Positions 7,744 to 11,758 of a stretch of DNA of 64,000 nt are shown in pieces. Position numbers and translations under genes: made by a program. The DNA comes from a virus (Duplodnaviria > Caudoviricetes). The DNA lies in IMG/VR virus record IMGVR_UViG_3300037851_000141, positions 267,850-331,849 of that record; one strand, given 5' to 3'. The notes under the pieces are model-generated. The model did no database searches, was not told where the DNA came from, and saw nothing but the letters and a program-made list of their open reading frames with translations. The first letter of the stretch is position 1. The number at the start of each line of letters is the position of its first letter.

Positions 7744-7864
7744 ACCCGTGTAGCTCAGATGGCAGAGCGAGAGCCTTCTGCGGAGATTATAGGAATATAT
7801 TGGGTTCGAATCCCAATCTCTGCTCCAAAGCTCTAGGTCGGAGGTTCAAGTCCTCTCACGGGCG
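7744..7864 (+). tRNA. trnR-UCU: tRNA-Arg(UCU) interrupted at 36/37 by a 48-nt insert
   Basis: D stem GCTC/GAGC, anticodon stem AGAGC/GCTCT, loop CT-TCT-[insert]-AA, T arm GGAGG-TTCAAGT-CCTCT, acceptor CCCGTG/CACGGG; A1-C72 mismatch, C20, followed by CTA rather than CCA. Confidence 0.8.
7780..7827 (+). ncRNA. nested mini-tRNA (acceptor stem + small hairpin + T arm + CCA)
   Basis: GCGGAGA/TCTCTGC 7-bp stem, TATA-GGAA-TATA hairpin, TTGGG-TTCGAAT-CCCAA T arm, T-CCA end. Confidence 0.85.
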
Positions 7865-7933: not shown

Positions 7934-8887
7934 ATGCCACAAGATGATAAAGTTTATAATCAATTAAAAGAAACCTGGAAGAACATTATTCAAGAAATGT
8001 TTATCCACGGTGATCCAAATAATAAGAATGTTATAGCGTTTAGAGATAGTATTTGGTTATTAGCGAATGATATTCCGGCATCACTTGCCAATGAGATATA
8101 TAAAAAAGTAGGAATTGATATCAAGTATAATGAAGATGCTGATTTTTTGGATTTAGCGAATGAAATAATGAATGAAAAGCCGGATGTACTTACAGGGTCT
8201 ATTAATGATAAAACCTTATTAGTTTATAGTTCAGGATCGTTTACATTAGATCCGAAGTCATCTATTCTTATCAAAAAAGTTGTACAGCATCTCAAACTCA
8301 AAAAAGTTGATTATCAGGAAATGGAAGATCAATTTACAGTTCCCAAGAAGAAAATAACTGGTCAAGTTCCAGACATAGCATATCATGGAACGTCTCTCAA
8401 TTATCTCGATAGCATTTTGAGACACGGATTAGAACCAAGAGGAAGTCAAAGCAATTACGAACAACAAGGCATTTACCACGATGATAAGATATTTTTCTCA
8501 ACTAGATTTGGAGAAGCAAGTCATCACGCAGATCATACAGCAGCATTGAAACAATCTAAACCTGTTGTTATTGAGTTTAGAATTCCAGATAAAAATCTTA
8601 TAACTCCAGATTATGACATTGATATCCAAAGTGGTGAAACGTTGTGGTCAGATACAAGAGATAGCAAATCGAAACTTACCAATCCAAAGAGTCAAAGCGC
8701 AAGTCAAGAGTTTGGAATATACGGTTATCAAGGAAAAATAATACCCCAACATTTTAGATATTTTTACATAAACTTAAGTGGGGATGAATATTCAACGCTT
8801 AAAAGCTATAAGAGATTTACATACAAACAATTACAAAAAATTATTAACAGATATGGTGACTTAGAATCTTATTTGGATTATTATTGA
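7934..8887 (+). CDS. ADP-ribosyltransferase-fold protein (HGT motif, Tpt1/KptA C-domain-like), probably virion-packaged
   Basis: AYHGTSLNYLDSILRHGLEP...IFFST...KPVVIEF; late promoter; N-terminus shared with 7003..7656. Confidence 0.65.
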   Translation: MPQDDKVYNQLKETWKNIIQEMFIHGDPNNKNVIAFRDSIWLLANDIPASLANEIYKKVGIDIKYNEDADFLDLANEIMNEKPDVLTGSINDKTLLVYSSGSFTLDPKSSILIKKVVQHLKLKKVDYQEMEDQFTVPKKKITGQVPDIAYHGTSLNYLDSILRHGLEPRGSQSNYEQQGIYHDDKIFFSTRFGEASHHADHTAALKQSKPVVIEFRIPDKNLITPDYDIDIQSGETLWSDTRDSKSKLTNPKSQSASQEFGIYGYQGKIIPQHFRYFYINLSGDEYSTLKSYKRFTYKQLQKIINRYGDLESYLDYY

Positions 8888-8948
8888 TACTTTAGTTGTT
8901 GATTTTAGATTCTGCTTGACTTTTATTTTTTGACTGTATAATGTGGTC

Positions 8949-9914
8949 ATGAACTTAGAGAATATCGGCTTTTACACTTTATCTGATGACCGGGCTAAGA
9001 ACTCGTCAGATAAGACTCCATTACATCGGTGTGAACTACTGTTAACTAAACGTTGTAATTTTAGATGTCCTTATTGTCGTGGAACTGGCCCTAAGCAAGA
9101 GGCATCATTAGAAGAAGCCCAAATGGTTGTTTCTGAGTGGGCTAAACATGGATTGAAGAATGTTAGGTTTTCTGGTGGTGAACCTACAGTTTGGCCGCAT
9201 TTGGTAGAATTGATTAAGCATACCAAGTCATTAGGTGTTGAGCGCATTGCTATTTCTTCAAACGGTAGTGCGAGTAAGGAATTATATAAAGAGTTATGTG
9301 ATTCTGGAGTAAACGATTTTTCTATTTCATTGGATGCTTGTTGTTCCTCTACTGGTGATACTATGTCTGGTGTAAAAGGTGCTTGGAATACTGTTGTCGA
9401 GAATATTAAGTATCTTTCGACCTTGACATATGTTACAGTAGGTGTCGTTCTAACTAATAATAACATTGAAGAATTGGGTAAAATCATTGAATTTGCTCAT
9501 AAACTTGGTGTTGCTGATATTAGAATCATTTCAGCGGCTCAAGTCTCAAATGATATAATTCTGAATGTTGATGTGTCTGATGATGTAAAAATGAAGCATC
9601 CTATCTTAATGTATCGTTTGAAGAACTTATCTGTTGGAAGAAATGTTCGTGGATTAAAAGAAACTGACACCCACAAATGTCCTTTGGTATTAGACGATAT
9701 GGCTGTTATGGATGGAAAACATTATCCTTGTATCATCTATATGCGTGAAGGTGGAGCCGCTATCGGTGAAGTTGGACCTAATATGCGTCAAGAGCGTTTA
9801 GATTGGTTCAATAAGACTGATACTCATAAAAATAAAATATGTAAAAATAACTGTTTGGATGTTTGTCAAGATTTCAATAACAAGTGGGAAGAGTTTCGGA
9901 AAAATCCTGCTTGA
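8949..9914 (+). CDS. radical SAM enzyme (MoaA/NirJ-like)
   Basis: CNFRCPYC, FSGGEPT, ISSNG, ISLD motifs; C-terminal Cys cluster; ATG 6 nt after TATAAT. Confidence 0.85.
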   Translation: MNLENIGFYTLSDDRAKNSSDKTPLHRCELLLTKRCNFRCPYCRGTGPKQEASLEEAQMVVSEWAKHGLKNVRFSGGEPTVWPHLVELIKHTKSLGVERIAISSNGSASKELYKELCDSGVNDFSISLDACCSSTGDTMSGVKGAWNTVVENIKYLSTLTYVTVGVVLTNNNIEELGKIIEFAHKLGVADIRIISAAQVSNDIILNVDVSDDVKMKHPILMYRLKNLSVGRNVRGLKETDTHKCPLVLDDMAVMDGKHYPCIIYMREGGAAIGEVGPNMRQERLDWFNKTDTHKNKICKNNCLDVCQDFNNKWEEFRKNPA

Positions 9915-9968
9915 CATTCAGAAAATAGTCGGTAGAATAAACGCGCACAAATAACAAAGGAATCAACC

Positions 9969-10445
9969 ATGGCTCGCATCACTCTCCGTAAGGCTCTCAA
10001 TAAAAAGAACAAACTCATTGGTCGTATCAAGGAGTTGGAAACCCATATTGCTCGTAATTTCAACAAATCTATCCAATATGTTGATGGTCAGGCTCTTTCT
10101 TGCCGTCAAATGGATATAACCAAAGAATATAAGGAACTATTTGACACCAAGAATAAGCTGGTTCTTCTCAAGTCGGCGCTGGCTAAAGCTAATGTCGGTA
10201 TCTATGAAAAGATTTATCGCATTGCCGAGTTAAAGGCTGATATTACTTGGTTGCGTGGACTGAACACAAATGCCGGTAAATCTGTAAACGAGTATGGTGA
10301 CAAGACTTACATCACCGAAAGTACTCCATTCAAATCTGCTGAAGAAGTAATGGCGATGATCAAATATGACGAAGGGTTGATTGAAACCTTCCAAGAGCAG
10401 ATTGACGAATTCAACGGTGTGACTTTTATTGAACTTGATGACTGA
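9969..10445 (+). CDS. coiled-coil hypothetical protein (possibly DIP1984-like)
   Basis: own promoter TTGACA-N16-TAGAAT, AAAGGA RBS, helical sequence; family guess from memory only. Confidence 0.7.
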   Translation: MARITLRKALNKKNKLIGRIKELETHIARNFNKSIQYVDGQALSCRQMDITKEYKELFDTKNKLVLLKSALAKANVGIYEKIYRIAELKADITWLRGLNTNAGKSVNEYGDKTYITESTPFKSAEEVMAMIKYDEGLIETFQEQIDEFNGVTFIELDD

Positions 10446-10465
10446 TTTTTGATTTTGGCAACTAT

Positions 10466-10697
10466 ATATCCGCCCAACTCTTTAGATTGTTAAATATCTA
10501 AGGAACAAAACTATAAGCCCCAAAAAGGCATATAGCGCATCTTTCCTTCGGGGAAGATTAACATACCTGGAACCGATAGTGGTAGAGCCTTGAGCTATTC
10601 TTGACTCTTACATTATCCGAACTCTTTAATCCGAAATCAAGCTTCCAGGCTCTTTTCGTTCCTTTATATTTAACGGTTTGATGGGTTGGGCGGATAT
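10466..10697 (+). ncRNA. structured RNA candidate 3' of the coiled-coil gene
   Basis: perfect 13-bp closing stem 10466-10478/10685-10697, inner stems, C(UUCG)G hairpin, G-U pairs favour the + strand. Confidence 0.65.
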
Positions 10698-10699
10698 TT

Positions 10700-11758
10700 T
10701 TATTCTATCTCTCCACCACCTAAACAAACATCATTAGCCAAGTCATAGAATACCGCATGTTGACCTGGAGCCGCAACTACAGGATCATCAGTTAAGACTT
10801 TTACAACAGAATCAGATTTGTATAACTTAGCCTTTGTACAGGTTCCACGATAACGAACTTGACAAACGACTTCCATACCATCATAAAAAGGTCCAGGGAA
10901 CAATTCATTTTTGATAGTAAAGTCATTAGTTGAAATCTTCTCAATAGTATCAACATATATTACATTATTATTGACATCTACCTTATCAACAAAGAGTGGA
11001 ATTGGAGTACCGTGTAAGCCGATTCCTTTTCTTTGGCCTTTAGTCTTTCCCCAAACGCCATTATGTTGCCCAATTACCATATTCTTATATACAATAGGTC
11101 CACGCTTTTTCTGTAATCCACCAAAGTCAAATAGGAACTCACTAATATTGCCACCAGGGACCATACACAGATCGGTAGAGTCGGGTTTAGCGGCAACATG
11201 AATCCCGATCTTATTAGCAATCTCCCTAATCTCCATTTTAGTAGAGAATCCACCTAAAGGGAAATGAATCTGTGGAATTATATCTTTAGGAATCCGATAG
11301 AGGAAGTAAGACTGGTCCTTTTTCAGATCCTTGGCCCTAGTGATAAAGAACTGATCATCTATCTCTTTCGTATTAGCATAATGTCCGGTTGCTAAATGAA
11401 CAGACCTATCACCATTTACAGCTTGGTAGAGGCTATTGATTTTAGTTGTGGCATTACAGAGGATACAAGGTGATGGAGTTAAGCCATTCTCGTAATCCTT
11501 TACCATTGGCTTTACAGTATGGTCCATAAAGGTCTGTTGAGCATCTATGACCTTAAATTGGATACCTAAGTCATTGGCAATCTTTGAAGCATCTTGAGTA
11601 GCTTTAGCATTACAACAGGATGCCGAATTGATATTTTGATTACAACGCCAAAGGACAAGATTTACTCCAATGACGTTATATCCATTACTCTTTAGTAGGT
11701 GAGCAGATACAGCAGAGTCAACGCCACCAGACAGACCAACAGCCACAGTAATAGGCAT
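10700..11758 (-). CDS. mnmA: tRNA-specific 2-thiouridylase MnmA
   Basis: SGGVDS, PSPCILCN, ATGHYA, KDQSYFL, GQRKG, VRYR, APGQHAVFY. Confidence 0.95.
   Translation of the reverse strand: MPITVAVGLSGGVDSAVSAHLLKSNGYNVIGVNLVLWRCNQNINSASCCNAKATQDASKIANDLGIQFKVIDAQQTFMDHTVKPMVKDYENGLTPSPCILCNATTKINSLYQAVNGDRSVHLATGHYANTKEIDDQFFITRAKDLKKDQSYFLYRIPKDIIPQIHFPLGGFSTKMEIREIANKIGIHVAAKPDSTDLCMVPGGNISEFLFDFGGLQKKRGPIVYKNMVIGQHNGVWGKTKGQRKGIGLHGTPIPLFVDKVDVNNNVIYVDTIEKISTNDFTIKNELFPGPFYDGMEVVCQVRYRGTCTKAKLYKSDSVVKVLTDDPVVAAPGQHAVFYDLANDVCLGGGEIE

What the first reader, a model, noticed from the sequence alone, without database searches (positions are those of the whole stretch)
9969..10697. Coiled-coil gene followed immediately by a ~230-nt highly structured RNA
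Seen: 20 nt after the stop codon a perfect 13-bp stem opens (ATATCCGCCCAAC 10466-10478 with GTTGGGCGGATAT 10685-10697). It continues through a G-U-rich helix, GTTAAATAT/ATATTTAAC and AAGGAAC/GTTCCTT, and encloses a CTATA/TATAG arm, an ATCTTTCC-UUCG-GGGAAGAT hairpin and a CCTGGAA/TTCCAGG arm with a twice-repeated ACTCTT...ATCCGAA loop motif. The G-U pairs and C(UUCG)G loop indicate the + strand, co-transcribed from the gene's own promoter. This is far more than a terminator. Inference: a protein-RNA pair (RNP scaffold, toxin-antitoxin or autoregulatory element) that I cannot assign to a known family.
Basis: partly seen in the sequence, partly recalled or inferred. Interest (0 to 1): 0.72.

Follow-up and report, generated by a model that had tools for sequence, protein, structure and literature searches.

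The report
Unknown protein gene with partner RNA
Right behind a small helical protein gene of unknown function (a distant DIP1984/DUF6847 relative), this 332-kb freshwater phage has a 232-base folded RNA; the same gene-plus-RNA pair recurs in about a hundred phage and bacterial loci and matches no catalogued RNA family, so it is probably an undescribed protein-RNA particle.

Summary
Bases 10466-10697 (+) fold into a closed multi-branched structure (-90.6 kcal/mol, z -9.9). Nothing in Rfam 15 matches.

The 158-aa gene is a distant member of the uncharacterised DIP1984/DUF6847 family (PDB 3KDQ). It is predicted with high confidence as a helical alpha/beta protein, and a homodimer test passed.

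In about 100 homologous loci, from phages, metagenomes, Verrucomicrobiota, Lentisphaerota and Armatimonadota, the gene is almost always followed on the same strand by a 150-330-nt non-coding stretch. This stretch has:
- a long closing stem;
- strand-specific A-rich words;
- a 7-nt periodic array in its 3' half, which the window RNA also shows.

Covariation is strong in 28 Opitutaceae copies (16 pairs with compensatory changes). It is also visible between the window and its two close relatives.

One third of 60 scanned phage and metagenome loci lie in co-oriented tRNA arrays. In Opitutaceae the order is sigma factor, protein, RNA, RtcB RNA ligase.

Best reading: an undescribed protein-RNA particle, possibly working like Ro60-Y RNA in RNA repair or counter-defence. 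Binding and function are inferred, not shown.

The window RNA cannot be aligned to the distant copies. Its link to them rests on synteny, architecture and periodicity.

This scan has already noted the same pair on at least eight other genomes. No paper describing it was found.

The parts
9911..9938 (+). sigma-70-like promoter (TTGACA, 16 nt, TAGAAT) upstream of the protein gene
   Evidence: 11 of 12 consensus positions. A similar TTGACT box precedes the homologue in L004. This is a consensus match only; transcription has not been shown.
9969..10445 (+). 158-aa gene, a distant DIP1984/DUF6847-family protein (three long helices plus beta elements; a predicted homodimer)
   Evidence: 899 representative clusters at E<=1e-3; 19 of 64 homologues hit Pfam PF20935 (best 1e-9); the window protein itself hits nothing; the family profile hits PDB 3kdq at E 0.0085; pLDDT 96.3; the best fold match is 3kdq (TM 0.59/0.61); homodimer score 0.57 against a best control of 0.01.
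10466..10697 (+). 232-nt structured non-coding RNA (whole element, P1 to P1')
   Evidence: MFE -90.6, z -9.9; no Rfam match; homologous RNA follows the homologues with 95% and 59% protein identity (nhmmer E 9e-37 and 3e-19).
10466..10497 (+). 5' strands of closing helices P1 (10466-10480) and P1b (10482-10497). They pair with 10666-10697.
   Evidence: The 5' arm of P1 is identical in L004 and L007. In L007, two A-to-G changes in P1b would give G-U pairs on the + strand only, if the 3' arm is unchanged; that arm is not on the contig.
10511..10535 (+). hairpin P3 (CUAUA arm with inner GCC/GGC stem and CCAAAAA loop)
   Evidence: L004 has UCC/GGA where the window has GCC/GGC, a compensatory G-C to U-A change.
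10539..10558 (+). hairpin P4 with C(UUCG)G tetraloop
   Evidence: L007 (95% protein identity) and L004 have different stem sequences but keep the hairpin and the UUCG loop.
10566..10649 (+). third domain, closed by CCUGGAA/UUCCAGG. It holds the GAUAGUGGUAGAG motif (10575-10587), which pairs with CUCUUACAUUAUC.
   Evidence: A GAYR-N2-3-GWYR motif is present in 33 of 77 homologous downstream regions against 26 of 154 controls.
10617..10651 (+). 7-nt periodic array (CCGAACU CUUUAAU CCGAAAU CAAGCUU CCAGGCU). It includes the 14-nt spaced AUCCGAA repeat.
   Evidence: in the window, autocorrelation peaks at lag 7 (0.43); units found in phase with the family heptad Y-A-A-R-A-Y-U, but with a weak score of 5.6 (95th percentile of coding controls 8.5); repeat D2.
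10698..10704 (+). U-run (TTTTTAT) directly after P1: terminator-like 3' end
   Evidence: Read directly. Many homologous loci also have a T-run after the closing stem. The simple terminator scan does not list it, because the 'loop' of this hairpin is 200 nt.

Best explanation
The stretch is one copy of a widespread, apparently undescribed two-part module. It consists of a gene for a small dimeric helical protein of the DIP1984/DUF6847 family and, directly behind it on the same strand, a gene for a roughly 200-nt structured RNA.

In the window the unit most likely works as follows:
1. It is transcribed from the sigma-70-like promoter at 9911-9938.
2. It runs through the 158-aa ORF and ends at the 15-bp P1 helix followed by a U-run.
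3. This leaves a 232-nt RNA made of a long closing rod (P1, P1b, P2), two small hairpins (P3, P4) and a third domain that carries a GAUA-type motif and an array with 7-nt periodicity.

Inferred, not shown: several copies of the protein (dimers) bind the periodic single-stranded array, and the structured 5' part and closing rod act as scaffold and protect the ends, giving a stable RNP.

Inferred from context only: the particle acts on damaged or processed RNA (tRNA maintenance, RNA repair or counter-defence). It would work like Ro60 with Y RNA without being related to it.
For: The structure is real: (z -9.9).

The protein family.

The pair is conserved:
- Homologous RNA follows the two closest homologues. 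L008 (36% protein identity) has a same-order architecture followed by a tRNA.
- In 45 viral, 49 metagenomic and 24 genomic loci, nearly every homologue is followed by a 170-590-nt ORF-free gap.
- A closing stem of at least 10 bp occurs in 54 of 77 downstream regions against 21 of 77 coding controls.
- The enriched hexamers are strand-specific: AAAACT occurs 72 times against 8 for its reverse complement.
- Periodicity at lags 7, 14 and 21: lag 7 is the strongest in 42 of 77 RNAs against 0 of 77 controls, and it is also the strongest in the window.
- A heptad matrix scores above the 95th percentile of coding controls in 60 of 77 RNAs.

Covariation. In 28 Opitutaceae copies, 95.8% of cells are paired and 16 pairs have changes on both sides. 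No shuffle of 500 reaches this, and slid controls reach at most 48% paired. P3 and P4 change in a compensatory way between the window, L007 and L004.

Cross-clade signal. A covariance model built from the Opitutaceae copies finds full-length matches at the expected place and strand in a metagenomic locus, a viral locus and a Victivallales locus (E 7e-4 to 0.04). It also finds its heptad region in 14 further loci.

Dimer. Score 0.57 against a best control of 0.01. The three runs agree in at least 95% of contacts and the partner pLDDT is at least 86. The mark was reached by 20 of 30 proteins solved as pairs of one chain and by 1 of 23 solved as single chains. A relative with four chains per crystal (3KDQ) exists, so this pass may come from memory of that structure.

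Context:
- tRNA genes lie on the same strand within the flanks of 20 of 60 loci.
- 23 Opitutaceae loci have a sigma-70-family factor upstream and RtcB starting 15-30 nt after the RNA.
- Phage neighbours include RNA ligase, Apyc1, NAPRTase, nicotinamidase-like and IMPDH-like genes.
- In the window, the neighbours are an intron-bearing tRNA, an ADP-ribosyltransferase-fold gene, a radical-SAM gene and an MnmA-like gene.
Against: - No transcript, processing or binding data exist for any copy.
- The window RNA cannot be aligned to the distant copies. The Opitutaceae model gives it 0.8 bits, and nhmmer finds only L007 and L004. Its heptad score (5.6) is below the control threshold of 8.5. Membership of one RNA family therefore rests on synteny with a homologous gene, shared architecture and the 7-nt period.
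- P1 of the window type has no covariation data, because both close relatives are cut off by contig ends.
- The protein has no recognised RNA-binding domain. Some of its most conserved residues (for example N31, K68, N75 and E87) lie in the predicted dimer interface rather than on an obvious RNA-binding face.
- Gene neighbours differ widely between phage loci, and no phage locus has RtcB within the flanks. The RNA-repair link therefore comes mainly from one bacterial family plus the tRNA arrays.
- The heptad matrix was trained on the same RNAs that it scores.
Confidence: 0.5

Rival explanations
1. Decoy or sponge. The RNA, with or without its protein, soaks up a host factor: a defence RNase, a tRNA-directed nuclease, or a general RNA-binding protein that recognises A-rich single strands. 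The repeated 7-nt units would be the bait, as the GGA motifs of CsrB/RsmZ are for CsrA.
For: There is a periodic array of short single-stranded units. Phage copies lie among tRNA arrays and counter-defence-type genes such as Apyc1, NAD salvage genes and RNA ligase.
Against: The strict linkage to one protein gene across phages and bacteria argues that the partner is encoded next door, not by the host. Chromosomal copies in Opitutaceae lie in an operon with RtcB and their own sigma factor, which does not fit an anti-host weapon. No candidate host factor is known.
Confidence: 0.2
2. Cis-acting 3' element of the upstream mRNA. On this reading it is a large terminator and stabiliser that blocks 3' exonucleases, an operator through which the protein controls its own mRNA, or an attenuator that gates read-through into the next gene (RtcB, tRNAs).
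For: P1 is followed by a U-run in the window and in many loci. In Opitutaceae, RtcB starts 15-30 nt after the RNA, and in L008 a tRNA starts 4 nt after it, so read-through would matter there.
Against: In the window the next gene is convergent, so nothing downstream can be regulated. A 200-nt element with conserved internal hairpins, a conserved unpaired periodic array and compensatory changes in inner helices is much more than end protection needs. Known autoregulatory operators sit at the 5' end of the message.
Confidence: 0.15
3. Toxin-antitoxin pair with an RNA antitoxin (type III-like). The protein would be harmful and the adjacent RNA would neutralise it.
For: There is a tight protein gene plus RNA gene pair on mobile elements. 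Relatives on Acinetobacter plasmids carry the old name 'septicolysin' (papers listed). The RNA contains short repeats.
Against: PADLOC and Pfam find no toxin family. The order is protein then RNA, with 7-nt units, whereas type III systems have 34-36-nt repeats upstream of an endoribonuclease toxin. The fold (3KDQ-like helical dimer) is unlike ToxN/AbiQ. The operon with RtcB and a sigma factor is not TA-like.
Confidence: 0.07
4. Nothing specific: a chance cluster of inverted repeats, or an ordinary bidirectional terminator between convergent genes.
For: The element lies between the 3' ends of two convergent genes, and it ends in a GC-rich stem followed by a T-run.
Against: z = -9.9 with 0 of 200 shuffles folding as well. 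The element is conserved with compensatory changes behind homologues of the upstream gene only. The same arrangement is seen in about 100 loci whatever the downstream gene.
Confidence: 0.03

Closest known systems
Ro60 (Rsr) with bacterial Y RNAs (YrlA/YrlB), as in the Salmonella rsr-yrlBA-rtcBA operon (PMC4201824, PMC7790460)
   Same: A protein gene is followed directly by one or more structured RNAs of about 100-200 nt whose 5' and 3' ends form a long stem. Both occur in bacteria and in phages. Both lie upstream of RtcB in an RNA-repair operon with a dedicated transcription regulator; in 23 Opitutaceae loci the order is sigma factor, protein, RNA, RtcB. A few distant variants of the RNA carry T-arm-like hairpins (read).
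   Different: No TROVE/Ro60 protein is present. The partner is a 3KDQ-like helical dimer. Rfam, which would report described Y RNA families, gives no match. The window RNA has no tRNA-like domain. The 7-nt periodic array has no counterpart in Y RNAs.
Periodic protein-binding RNA arrays: TRAP sites (11 G/UAG triplets) and CsrB/RsmZ (many GGA motifs for CsrA). This comparison rests on my own knowledge of these systems.
   Same: A short motif is repeated at regular spacing in an otherwise structured RNA. This suggests several identical protein subunits bound side by side.
   Different: The unit is 7 nt (Y-A-A-R-A-Y-U) with 4-8 copies. The presumed binding protein is encoded next to the RNA and is unrelated to TRAP or CsrA. 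Binding has not been shown.
DIP1984 family / Pfam DUF6847 (PDB 3KDQ, Corynebacterium diphtheriae; formerly annotated 'septicolysin')
   Same: The length (about 150 aa) and the order of secondary-structure elements agree. The profile matches over the whole length, and 3KDQ is the best and only convincing fold match.
   Different: The window protein itself scores below every Pfam, NCBIfam and PHROG threshold. It has only 12-14% identity to 3KDQ in the structural alignment. No function is known for the family, and no paper found mentions an associated RNA.
GOLLD and ROOL: large ornate RNAs often found next to tRNA genes in phages (PMC12286853)
   Same: Both are phage-borne structured RNAs of unknown function that often lie in tRNA arrays.
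   Different: GOLLD and ROOL are three to four times larger, form RNA-only multimers, and have no fixed partner gene. Rfam models for them do not match here.

Membership tests
DIP1984 / DUF6847 protein family (PF20935, NF038048) | Significant match to the family profile | tested here: inconclusive
   The window protein has no Pfam or NCBIfam hit. However, 19 of 64 of its homologues hit PF20935 (best 1e-9), several hit NF038048 weakly, and the profile of the homologues hits the 3kdq sequence at E 0.0085 over the full length.
DIP1984 / DUF6847 protein family (PF20935, NF038048) | Same fold as the solved member 3KDQ | tested here: met
   The AlphaFold model has pLDDT 96.3. In Foldseek the top two hits are 3kdq chains (TM 0.59/0.61, probability 1.00), and nothing else is comparable. 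Atlas look-alike clusters carry PF20935.
Ro60-Y RNA system | TROVE-domain Ro60/Rsr protein encoded beside the RNA | tested here: not met
   Pfam scans of the window neighbours and of 146 flanking ORFs from related loci show no TROVE domain.
Ro60-Y RNA system | RNA matches a described Y RNA family | tested here: not met
   Rfam 15 gives no hit at E<=10 on the region, and no hit at gathering score on the window or on 20 related loci.
Ro60-Y RNA system | Placed in an RNA-repair operon with RtcB | tested here: inconclusive
   Met in 23 Opitutaceae loci. Not met in the window or in any phage locus within the flanks examined.
Type III toxin-antitoxin (ToxIN-like) | Endoribonuclease toxin of the ToxN/AbiQ family, preceded by tandem repeats of about 34-36 nt | tested here: not met
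   No PADLOC or Pfam toxin hit. The RNA lies downstream of the gene. Repeats have a 7-nt period, with one pair spaced 14 nt apart.
Intrinsic terminator | Short GC-rich hairpin with a small loop, followed by a U-run | tested here: inconclusive
   The P1 stem followed by TTTTTAT is present. However, the 'loop' is 200 nt of conserved structure, and the terminator scan does not call it.
Riboswitch or other cis-regulatory leader | Lies in the 5' leader of a co-oriented regulated gene | tested here: not met
   In the window the next gene (10700-11758) is on the opposite strand. Downstream genes differ between loci.
The DIP1984-associated heptad RNA (provisional family defined in this scan) | Directly downstream of and co-oriented with a DIP1984-like gene; closing stem; 7-nt periodic array in the 3' half | tested here: met
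   The RNA starts 20 nt after the stop codon. The closing rod comprises 15, 16 and 7 bp. Autocorrelation at lag 7 is 0.43, the maximum in the window.
The DIP1984-associated heptad RNA (provisional family defined in this scan) | Detectable sequence and structure homology to other members | tested here: not met
   The Opitutaceae covariance model gives 0.8 bits. nhmmer finds only L007 and L004. The heptad matrix score of 5.6 is below the control threshold of 8.5.

The most novel reading that the evidence does not exclude
DIP1984/DUF6847 proteins and their trailing heptad-array RNAs form a previously unrecognised, ancient class of ribonucleoprotein particle. It is shared by several bacterial phyla and many large phages. 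Protein dimers would coat a 7-nt periodic RNA track held by a structured scaffold, and the particle would serve in the response to RNA damage: partnering RtcB in bacteria and supporting the tRNA pool against host nucleases in phages.
Probability: 0.35. Interest if true: 0.85.

Novelty: categorically new. Interest (0 to 1): 0.75.

Why it matters
- It would give a first functional handle on a protein family with hundreds of clusters and a crystal structure solved in 2009 but no known role.
- It would add a new structured RNA class with a dedicated protein partner. Few such classes (Ro-Y RNA, SRP, tmRNA-SmpB, 6S, CsrB) are known in bacteria.
- Its position in phage tRNA arrays, and next to RtcB in Verrucomicrobiota, suggests an unexplored branch of RNA repair or of the conflict between phages and hosts over tRNA.
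- The 7-nt periodic track is a directly testable binding code.

Tried and rejected
- Rfam, at gathering score and at E<=10, on the window and on 20 related loci: only tRNAs.
- T4 stable RNAs rnaC and rnaD: read and found unlike this RNA.
- blastn and tblastn against 50,697 phage records: no DNA match, and only two weak protein hits in uncultured huge phages.
- PHROGs: no family for the protein.
- Phage T5: no homologue.
- Searches of viral contigs with the single protein and with MnmA: nothing.
- DNA-pattern scans for more window-type RNAs: only chance matches, some inside coding regions.
- No paralogue of the RNA elsewhere in the 332-kb genome.
- A hairpin with a YYAAAAR loop as a family hallmark: rejected, 4 of 77 against 8 of 154 controls.
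- The Opitutaceae covariance model does not recognise the window RNA.
- Public sequencing runs: no RNA holder listed. The only full holder is a freshwater metagenome that may be the source of this DNA.
- The first genome-contig scan with the phage-type alignment found nothing.
- Burroughs and Aravind 2016 on RNA repair systems is not held in the library.
- Literature searches for DUF6847, DIP1984, 3KDQ and septicolysin found only plasmid annotations, with nothing on function or an RNA.

Full report
**Source.** The window is the last 64 kb of a 332-kb, roughly 92% complete IMG/VR phage record. The only run that holds the whole stretch is a freshwater metagenome, which may be the source of the DNA.

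**Observation.** The sequence shows the 158-codon ORF 9969-10445 ending in TGA. Twenty bases later come the 13 bases that pair perfectly with 10685-10697.

RNAfold of 10460-10705 (+) gives -90.6 kcal/mol, against -49.8 +/- 4.1 for dinucleotide shuffles (z -9.9, 0 of 200 as good). The centroid is nearly identical to the MFE structure. The helices are:
- P1: 10466-10480 with 10683-10697
- P1b: 10482-10497 with 10666-10681
- P2: 10500-10506 with 10658-10664
- hairpin P3: 10511-10535
- hairpin P4 with a C(UUCG)G loop: 10539-10558
- a third domain closed by 10566-10572 with 10643-10649

The repeat finder confirms the arms and the AUCCGAA units spaced 14 nt apart. The minus strand folds worse and has a poor centroid.

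**Known RNA families.** None matches. Rfam 15 finds only one tRNA in the whole window, nothing at E<=10 in the region, and only tRNAs in 20 related loci. The RNA is single-copy in the genome.

**The protein.**
- Pfam, PHROGs, NCBIfam and PADLOC give nothing for the window protein itself.
- An exhaustive phmmer search finds 899 representative clusters at E<=1e-3, nearly all 140-165 aa long.
- Of 64 aligned homologues, 19 hit Pfam DUF6847 (PF20935, best 1e-9), and some hit NCBIfam DIP1984_fam weakly.
- The family profile matches the 3KDQ (DIP1984) sequence over its full length at E 0.0085.
- The AlphaFold model (pLDDT 96.3) has three long helices with small beta elements. Its only convincing PDB match is 3KDQ (TM about 0.6). 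Atlas look-alike clusters are mostly viral, and some carry PF20935.
- A homodimer test passed. The score was 0.57 against a best control of 0.01; the runs agree in at least 95% of contacts; the partner pLDDT is at least 86. The mark was reached by 20 of 30 proteins solved as pairs of one chain and by 1 of 23 solved as single chains. Because 3KDQ was solved with four chains, this pass may reflect memory of that structure.
- No paper in the library says anything about the function of DUF6847, DIP1984 or 'septicolysin'.

**Close relatives of the RNA.**
- The homologue with 95% protein identity (L007) and the one with 59% (L004) are each followed by clearly homologous RNA (nhmmer E 9e-37 and 3e-19). 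Both contigs end inside the RNA.
- Junctions and the GAUA and CUCUUA motifs are almost invariant, while the helices change in a compensatory way. P3 has GCC/GGC in the window and UCC/GGA in L004. The P4 stem differs at several positions in L007 and L004 but keeps the hairpin and the UUCG loop. This is the pattern expected of a functional RNA read from the + strand.
- L008 (36% protein identity) has a closed RNA of about 235 nt with the same order of elements, followed 4 nt later by a tRNA-Gly gene.

**The wider family.** I collected 45 viral loci, 49 metagenomic loci and 24 loci from bacterial genomes. The bacterial ones are mainly Opitutaceae and other Verrucomicrobiota, plus Victivallales/Lentisphaerae and Armatimonadetes.
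- Nearly every gene is followed by an ORF-free gap of 170-590 nt. Reading these gaps shows a recurring plan: a closing stem that starts 0-40 nt after the stop codon, one or two hairpins, often a GAUA-N2-GAYA motif, then an A-rich stretch of short repeats, and often a T-run.
- An uninterrupted long-range stem of at least 10 bp occurs in 54 of 77 non-redundant downstream regions, against 21 of 77 coding controls. z<=-3 occurs in 37 against 11.
- The enriched hexamers are strongly strand-specific: AAAACT 72 against 8 for the reverse complement, and AAACTC 38 against 3.
- The 3' halves show 7-nt periodicity. Mean autocorrelation is 0.358 at lag 7 and 0.331 at lag 14, against 0.243 and 0.247 in coding controls. 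Lag 7 is the maximum in 42 of 77 RNAs and in 0 of 77 controls.
- The heptad consensus is Y-A-A-R-A-Y-U. Sixty of 77 RNAs exceed the 95th percentile of coding controls, but the matrix was trained on these same RNAs.
- The window RNA shares the period (lag 7 = 0.43, its maximum). Its units (CCGAACU, CUUUAAU, CCGAAAU, CAAGCUU) fit the consensus only at the ends, and its score is below the control threshold.

**Covariation.** In 28 Opitutaceae RNAs aligned by MAFFT (A8), a structure of 42 pairs has 95.8% of cells paired and 16 pairs with changes on both sides. None of 500 column shuffles reaches this, and slid controls reach at most 48% paired. P1 alone has 8 covarying pairs.

A covariance model built from this set finds full-length matches at the expected position and strand in L060, L025 and L123 (E 7e-4, 0.027 and 0.038). 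It also matches its heptad region in 14 other loci, all on the + strand just behind the gene. It does not recognise the window RNA (0.8 bits). The claim that the window RNA belongs to the same family as the distant copies therefore rests on four things: the homologous partner gene, position, architecture and periodicity. It does not rest on alignment.

**Context.**
- tRNA genes lie on the same strand within the flanks of 20 of 60 loci, often as arrays.
- In Opitutaceae the order is a sigma-70-family factor, sometimes one more gene, then the DIP1984-like gene, the RNA, and RtcB starting 15-30 nt later. This holds in 23 loci.
- Phage neighbours are heterogeneous. They include IMPDH/GMP-reductase-like genes (5), nicotinamidase-like genes (4), NAPRTase, RNA ligase, Apyc1 and others.
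- In the window the unit is preceded by a tRNA with a 51-nt insert, an ADP-ribosyltransferase-fold gene (PARP and Tpt1 hits below threshold) and a radical-SAM gene. It is met head-on by an MnmA-like tRNA thiolase gene.
- The only constant is the gene-RNA pair.

**Mechanism.**
- Shown: the fold, its conservation, the strand, the link to the upstream gene and the periodic array.
- Supported by a consensus match only: transcription from the TTGACA-16-TAGAAT box at 9911-9938 (11 of 12 positions), and termination at P1 plus the U-run.
- Inferred: protein dimers bind the heptad track to give an RNP. The particle acts in RNA repair, tRNA maintenance or counter-defence, working like Ro60 with Y RNA, which precede RtcB in the Salmonella rsr-yrlBA-rtcBA operon (PMC4201824, PMC7790460).
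- It is not a member of that system. There is no TROVE protein and no Y RNA match.
- Rivals are a decoy or sponge for a host factor, a cis-acting 3' element, and an RNA-antitoxin pair. Each is less consistent with the strict gene linkage, with the convergent downstream gene in the window, or with the RtcB operon.

**Earlier notes of this scan.** After I had reached this reading, a look-up showed that the scan has already reported the DIP1984-plus-trailing-RNA pair on at least eight other genomes: bacteria, an archaeon, a candidate-phyla bacterium, a T5-like phage and an Acinetobacter plasmid. These are AI notes and not independent evidence. One of them prompted the periodicity test, which I then ran myself. 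Phage T5 itself has no homologue.

**Verdict.** This is a real, conserved and uncatalogued structured RNA, tied to a protein family of unknown function. The finding is the phage, window-type variant of a module that appears to be undescribed in the literature searched.

Noticed in passing
window 7744-7864 (+): Rfam tRNA match (48.8 bits) with a 51-nt insertion in the anticodon-loop region. ARAGORN does not call it. It is a candidate intron-bearing or otherwise interrupted phage tRNA, and it sits next to an ADP-ribosyltransferase-fold gene with a weak Tpt1 (RNA 2'-phosphotransferase) hit.
   Followed up: partly
window 7934-8887 (+): 317-aa protein with weak PARP-catalytic and Tpt1/KptA hits, both below Pfam thresholds (E 5e-4 and 8e-4), and a match to phrog_11974 of unknown function. 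The same gene order (this gene, the radical-SAM gene, the DIP1984-like gene) is kept in L007.
   Followed up: no
window 8943-9914 (+): 323-aa radical-SAM protein. Its best PADLOC hits are prokaryotic viperin models (pVip, 1.9e-16). It is a phage-encoded viperin-like or other radical-SAM enzyme directly upstream of the module.
   Followed up: no
window 10700-11758 (-): Phage-encoded MnmA-like tRNA 2-thiouridylase with all three Pfam domains (2.7e-62). Its stop codon lies 3 nt from the 3' end of the RNA on the other strand.
   Followed up: no
L111 1621-4756 (Geminisphaera colitermitum TAV2) and 22 other Opitutaceae loci: A conserved operon: sigma-70-family factor, DIP1984-like gene, structured RNA, 510-aa RtcB. 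Some genomes carry two copies (L106/L107 and L111/L115).
   Followed up: partly
L008 5282-5357; L016 610-684: ARAGORN calls tRNAs with a CUA anticodon (labelled tRNA-Pyl, that is, amber-reading) in two phage tRNA arrays that also hold the module. This may indicate stop-codon suppression or recoding in these phages.
   Followed up: no
L031, L040, L046, L089, L102 (just after the RNA): In one phage subgroup the gene after the RNA is IMP dehydrogenase/GMP reductase-like (Pfam IMPDH, best 2.2e-36). Its start codon lies close behind the closing stem.
   Followed up: no
window 10449-10458 with 10631-10640; 10473-10484 with 10617-10628: The 10 nt just after the stop codon are 90% complementary to part of the heptad array, which allows an alternative pairing or a pseudoknot. 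There is also a 12-nt direct repeat (CCCAACTCTTTA and CCGAACTCTTTA), one copy in P1/P1b and one in the array.
   Followed up: no
L013, L035, L036, L073, L076, L101 (downstream RNAs): Some distant variants of the RNA contain hairpins with T-loop-like GTTCGAWTC sequences that are not called as tRNAs (read). The window RNA has none.
   Followed up: no
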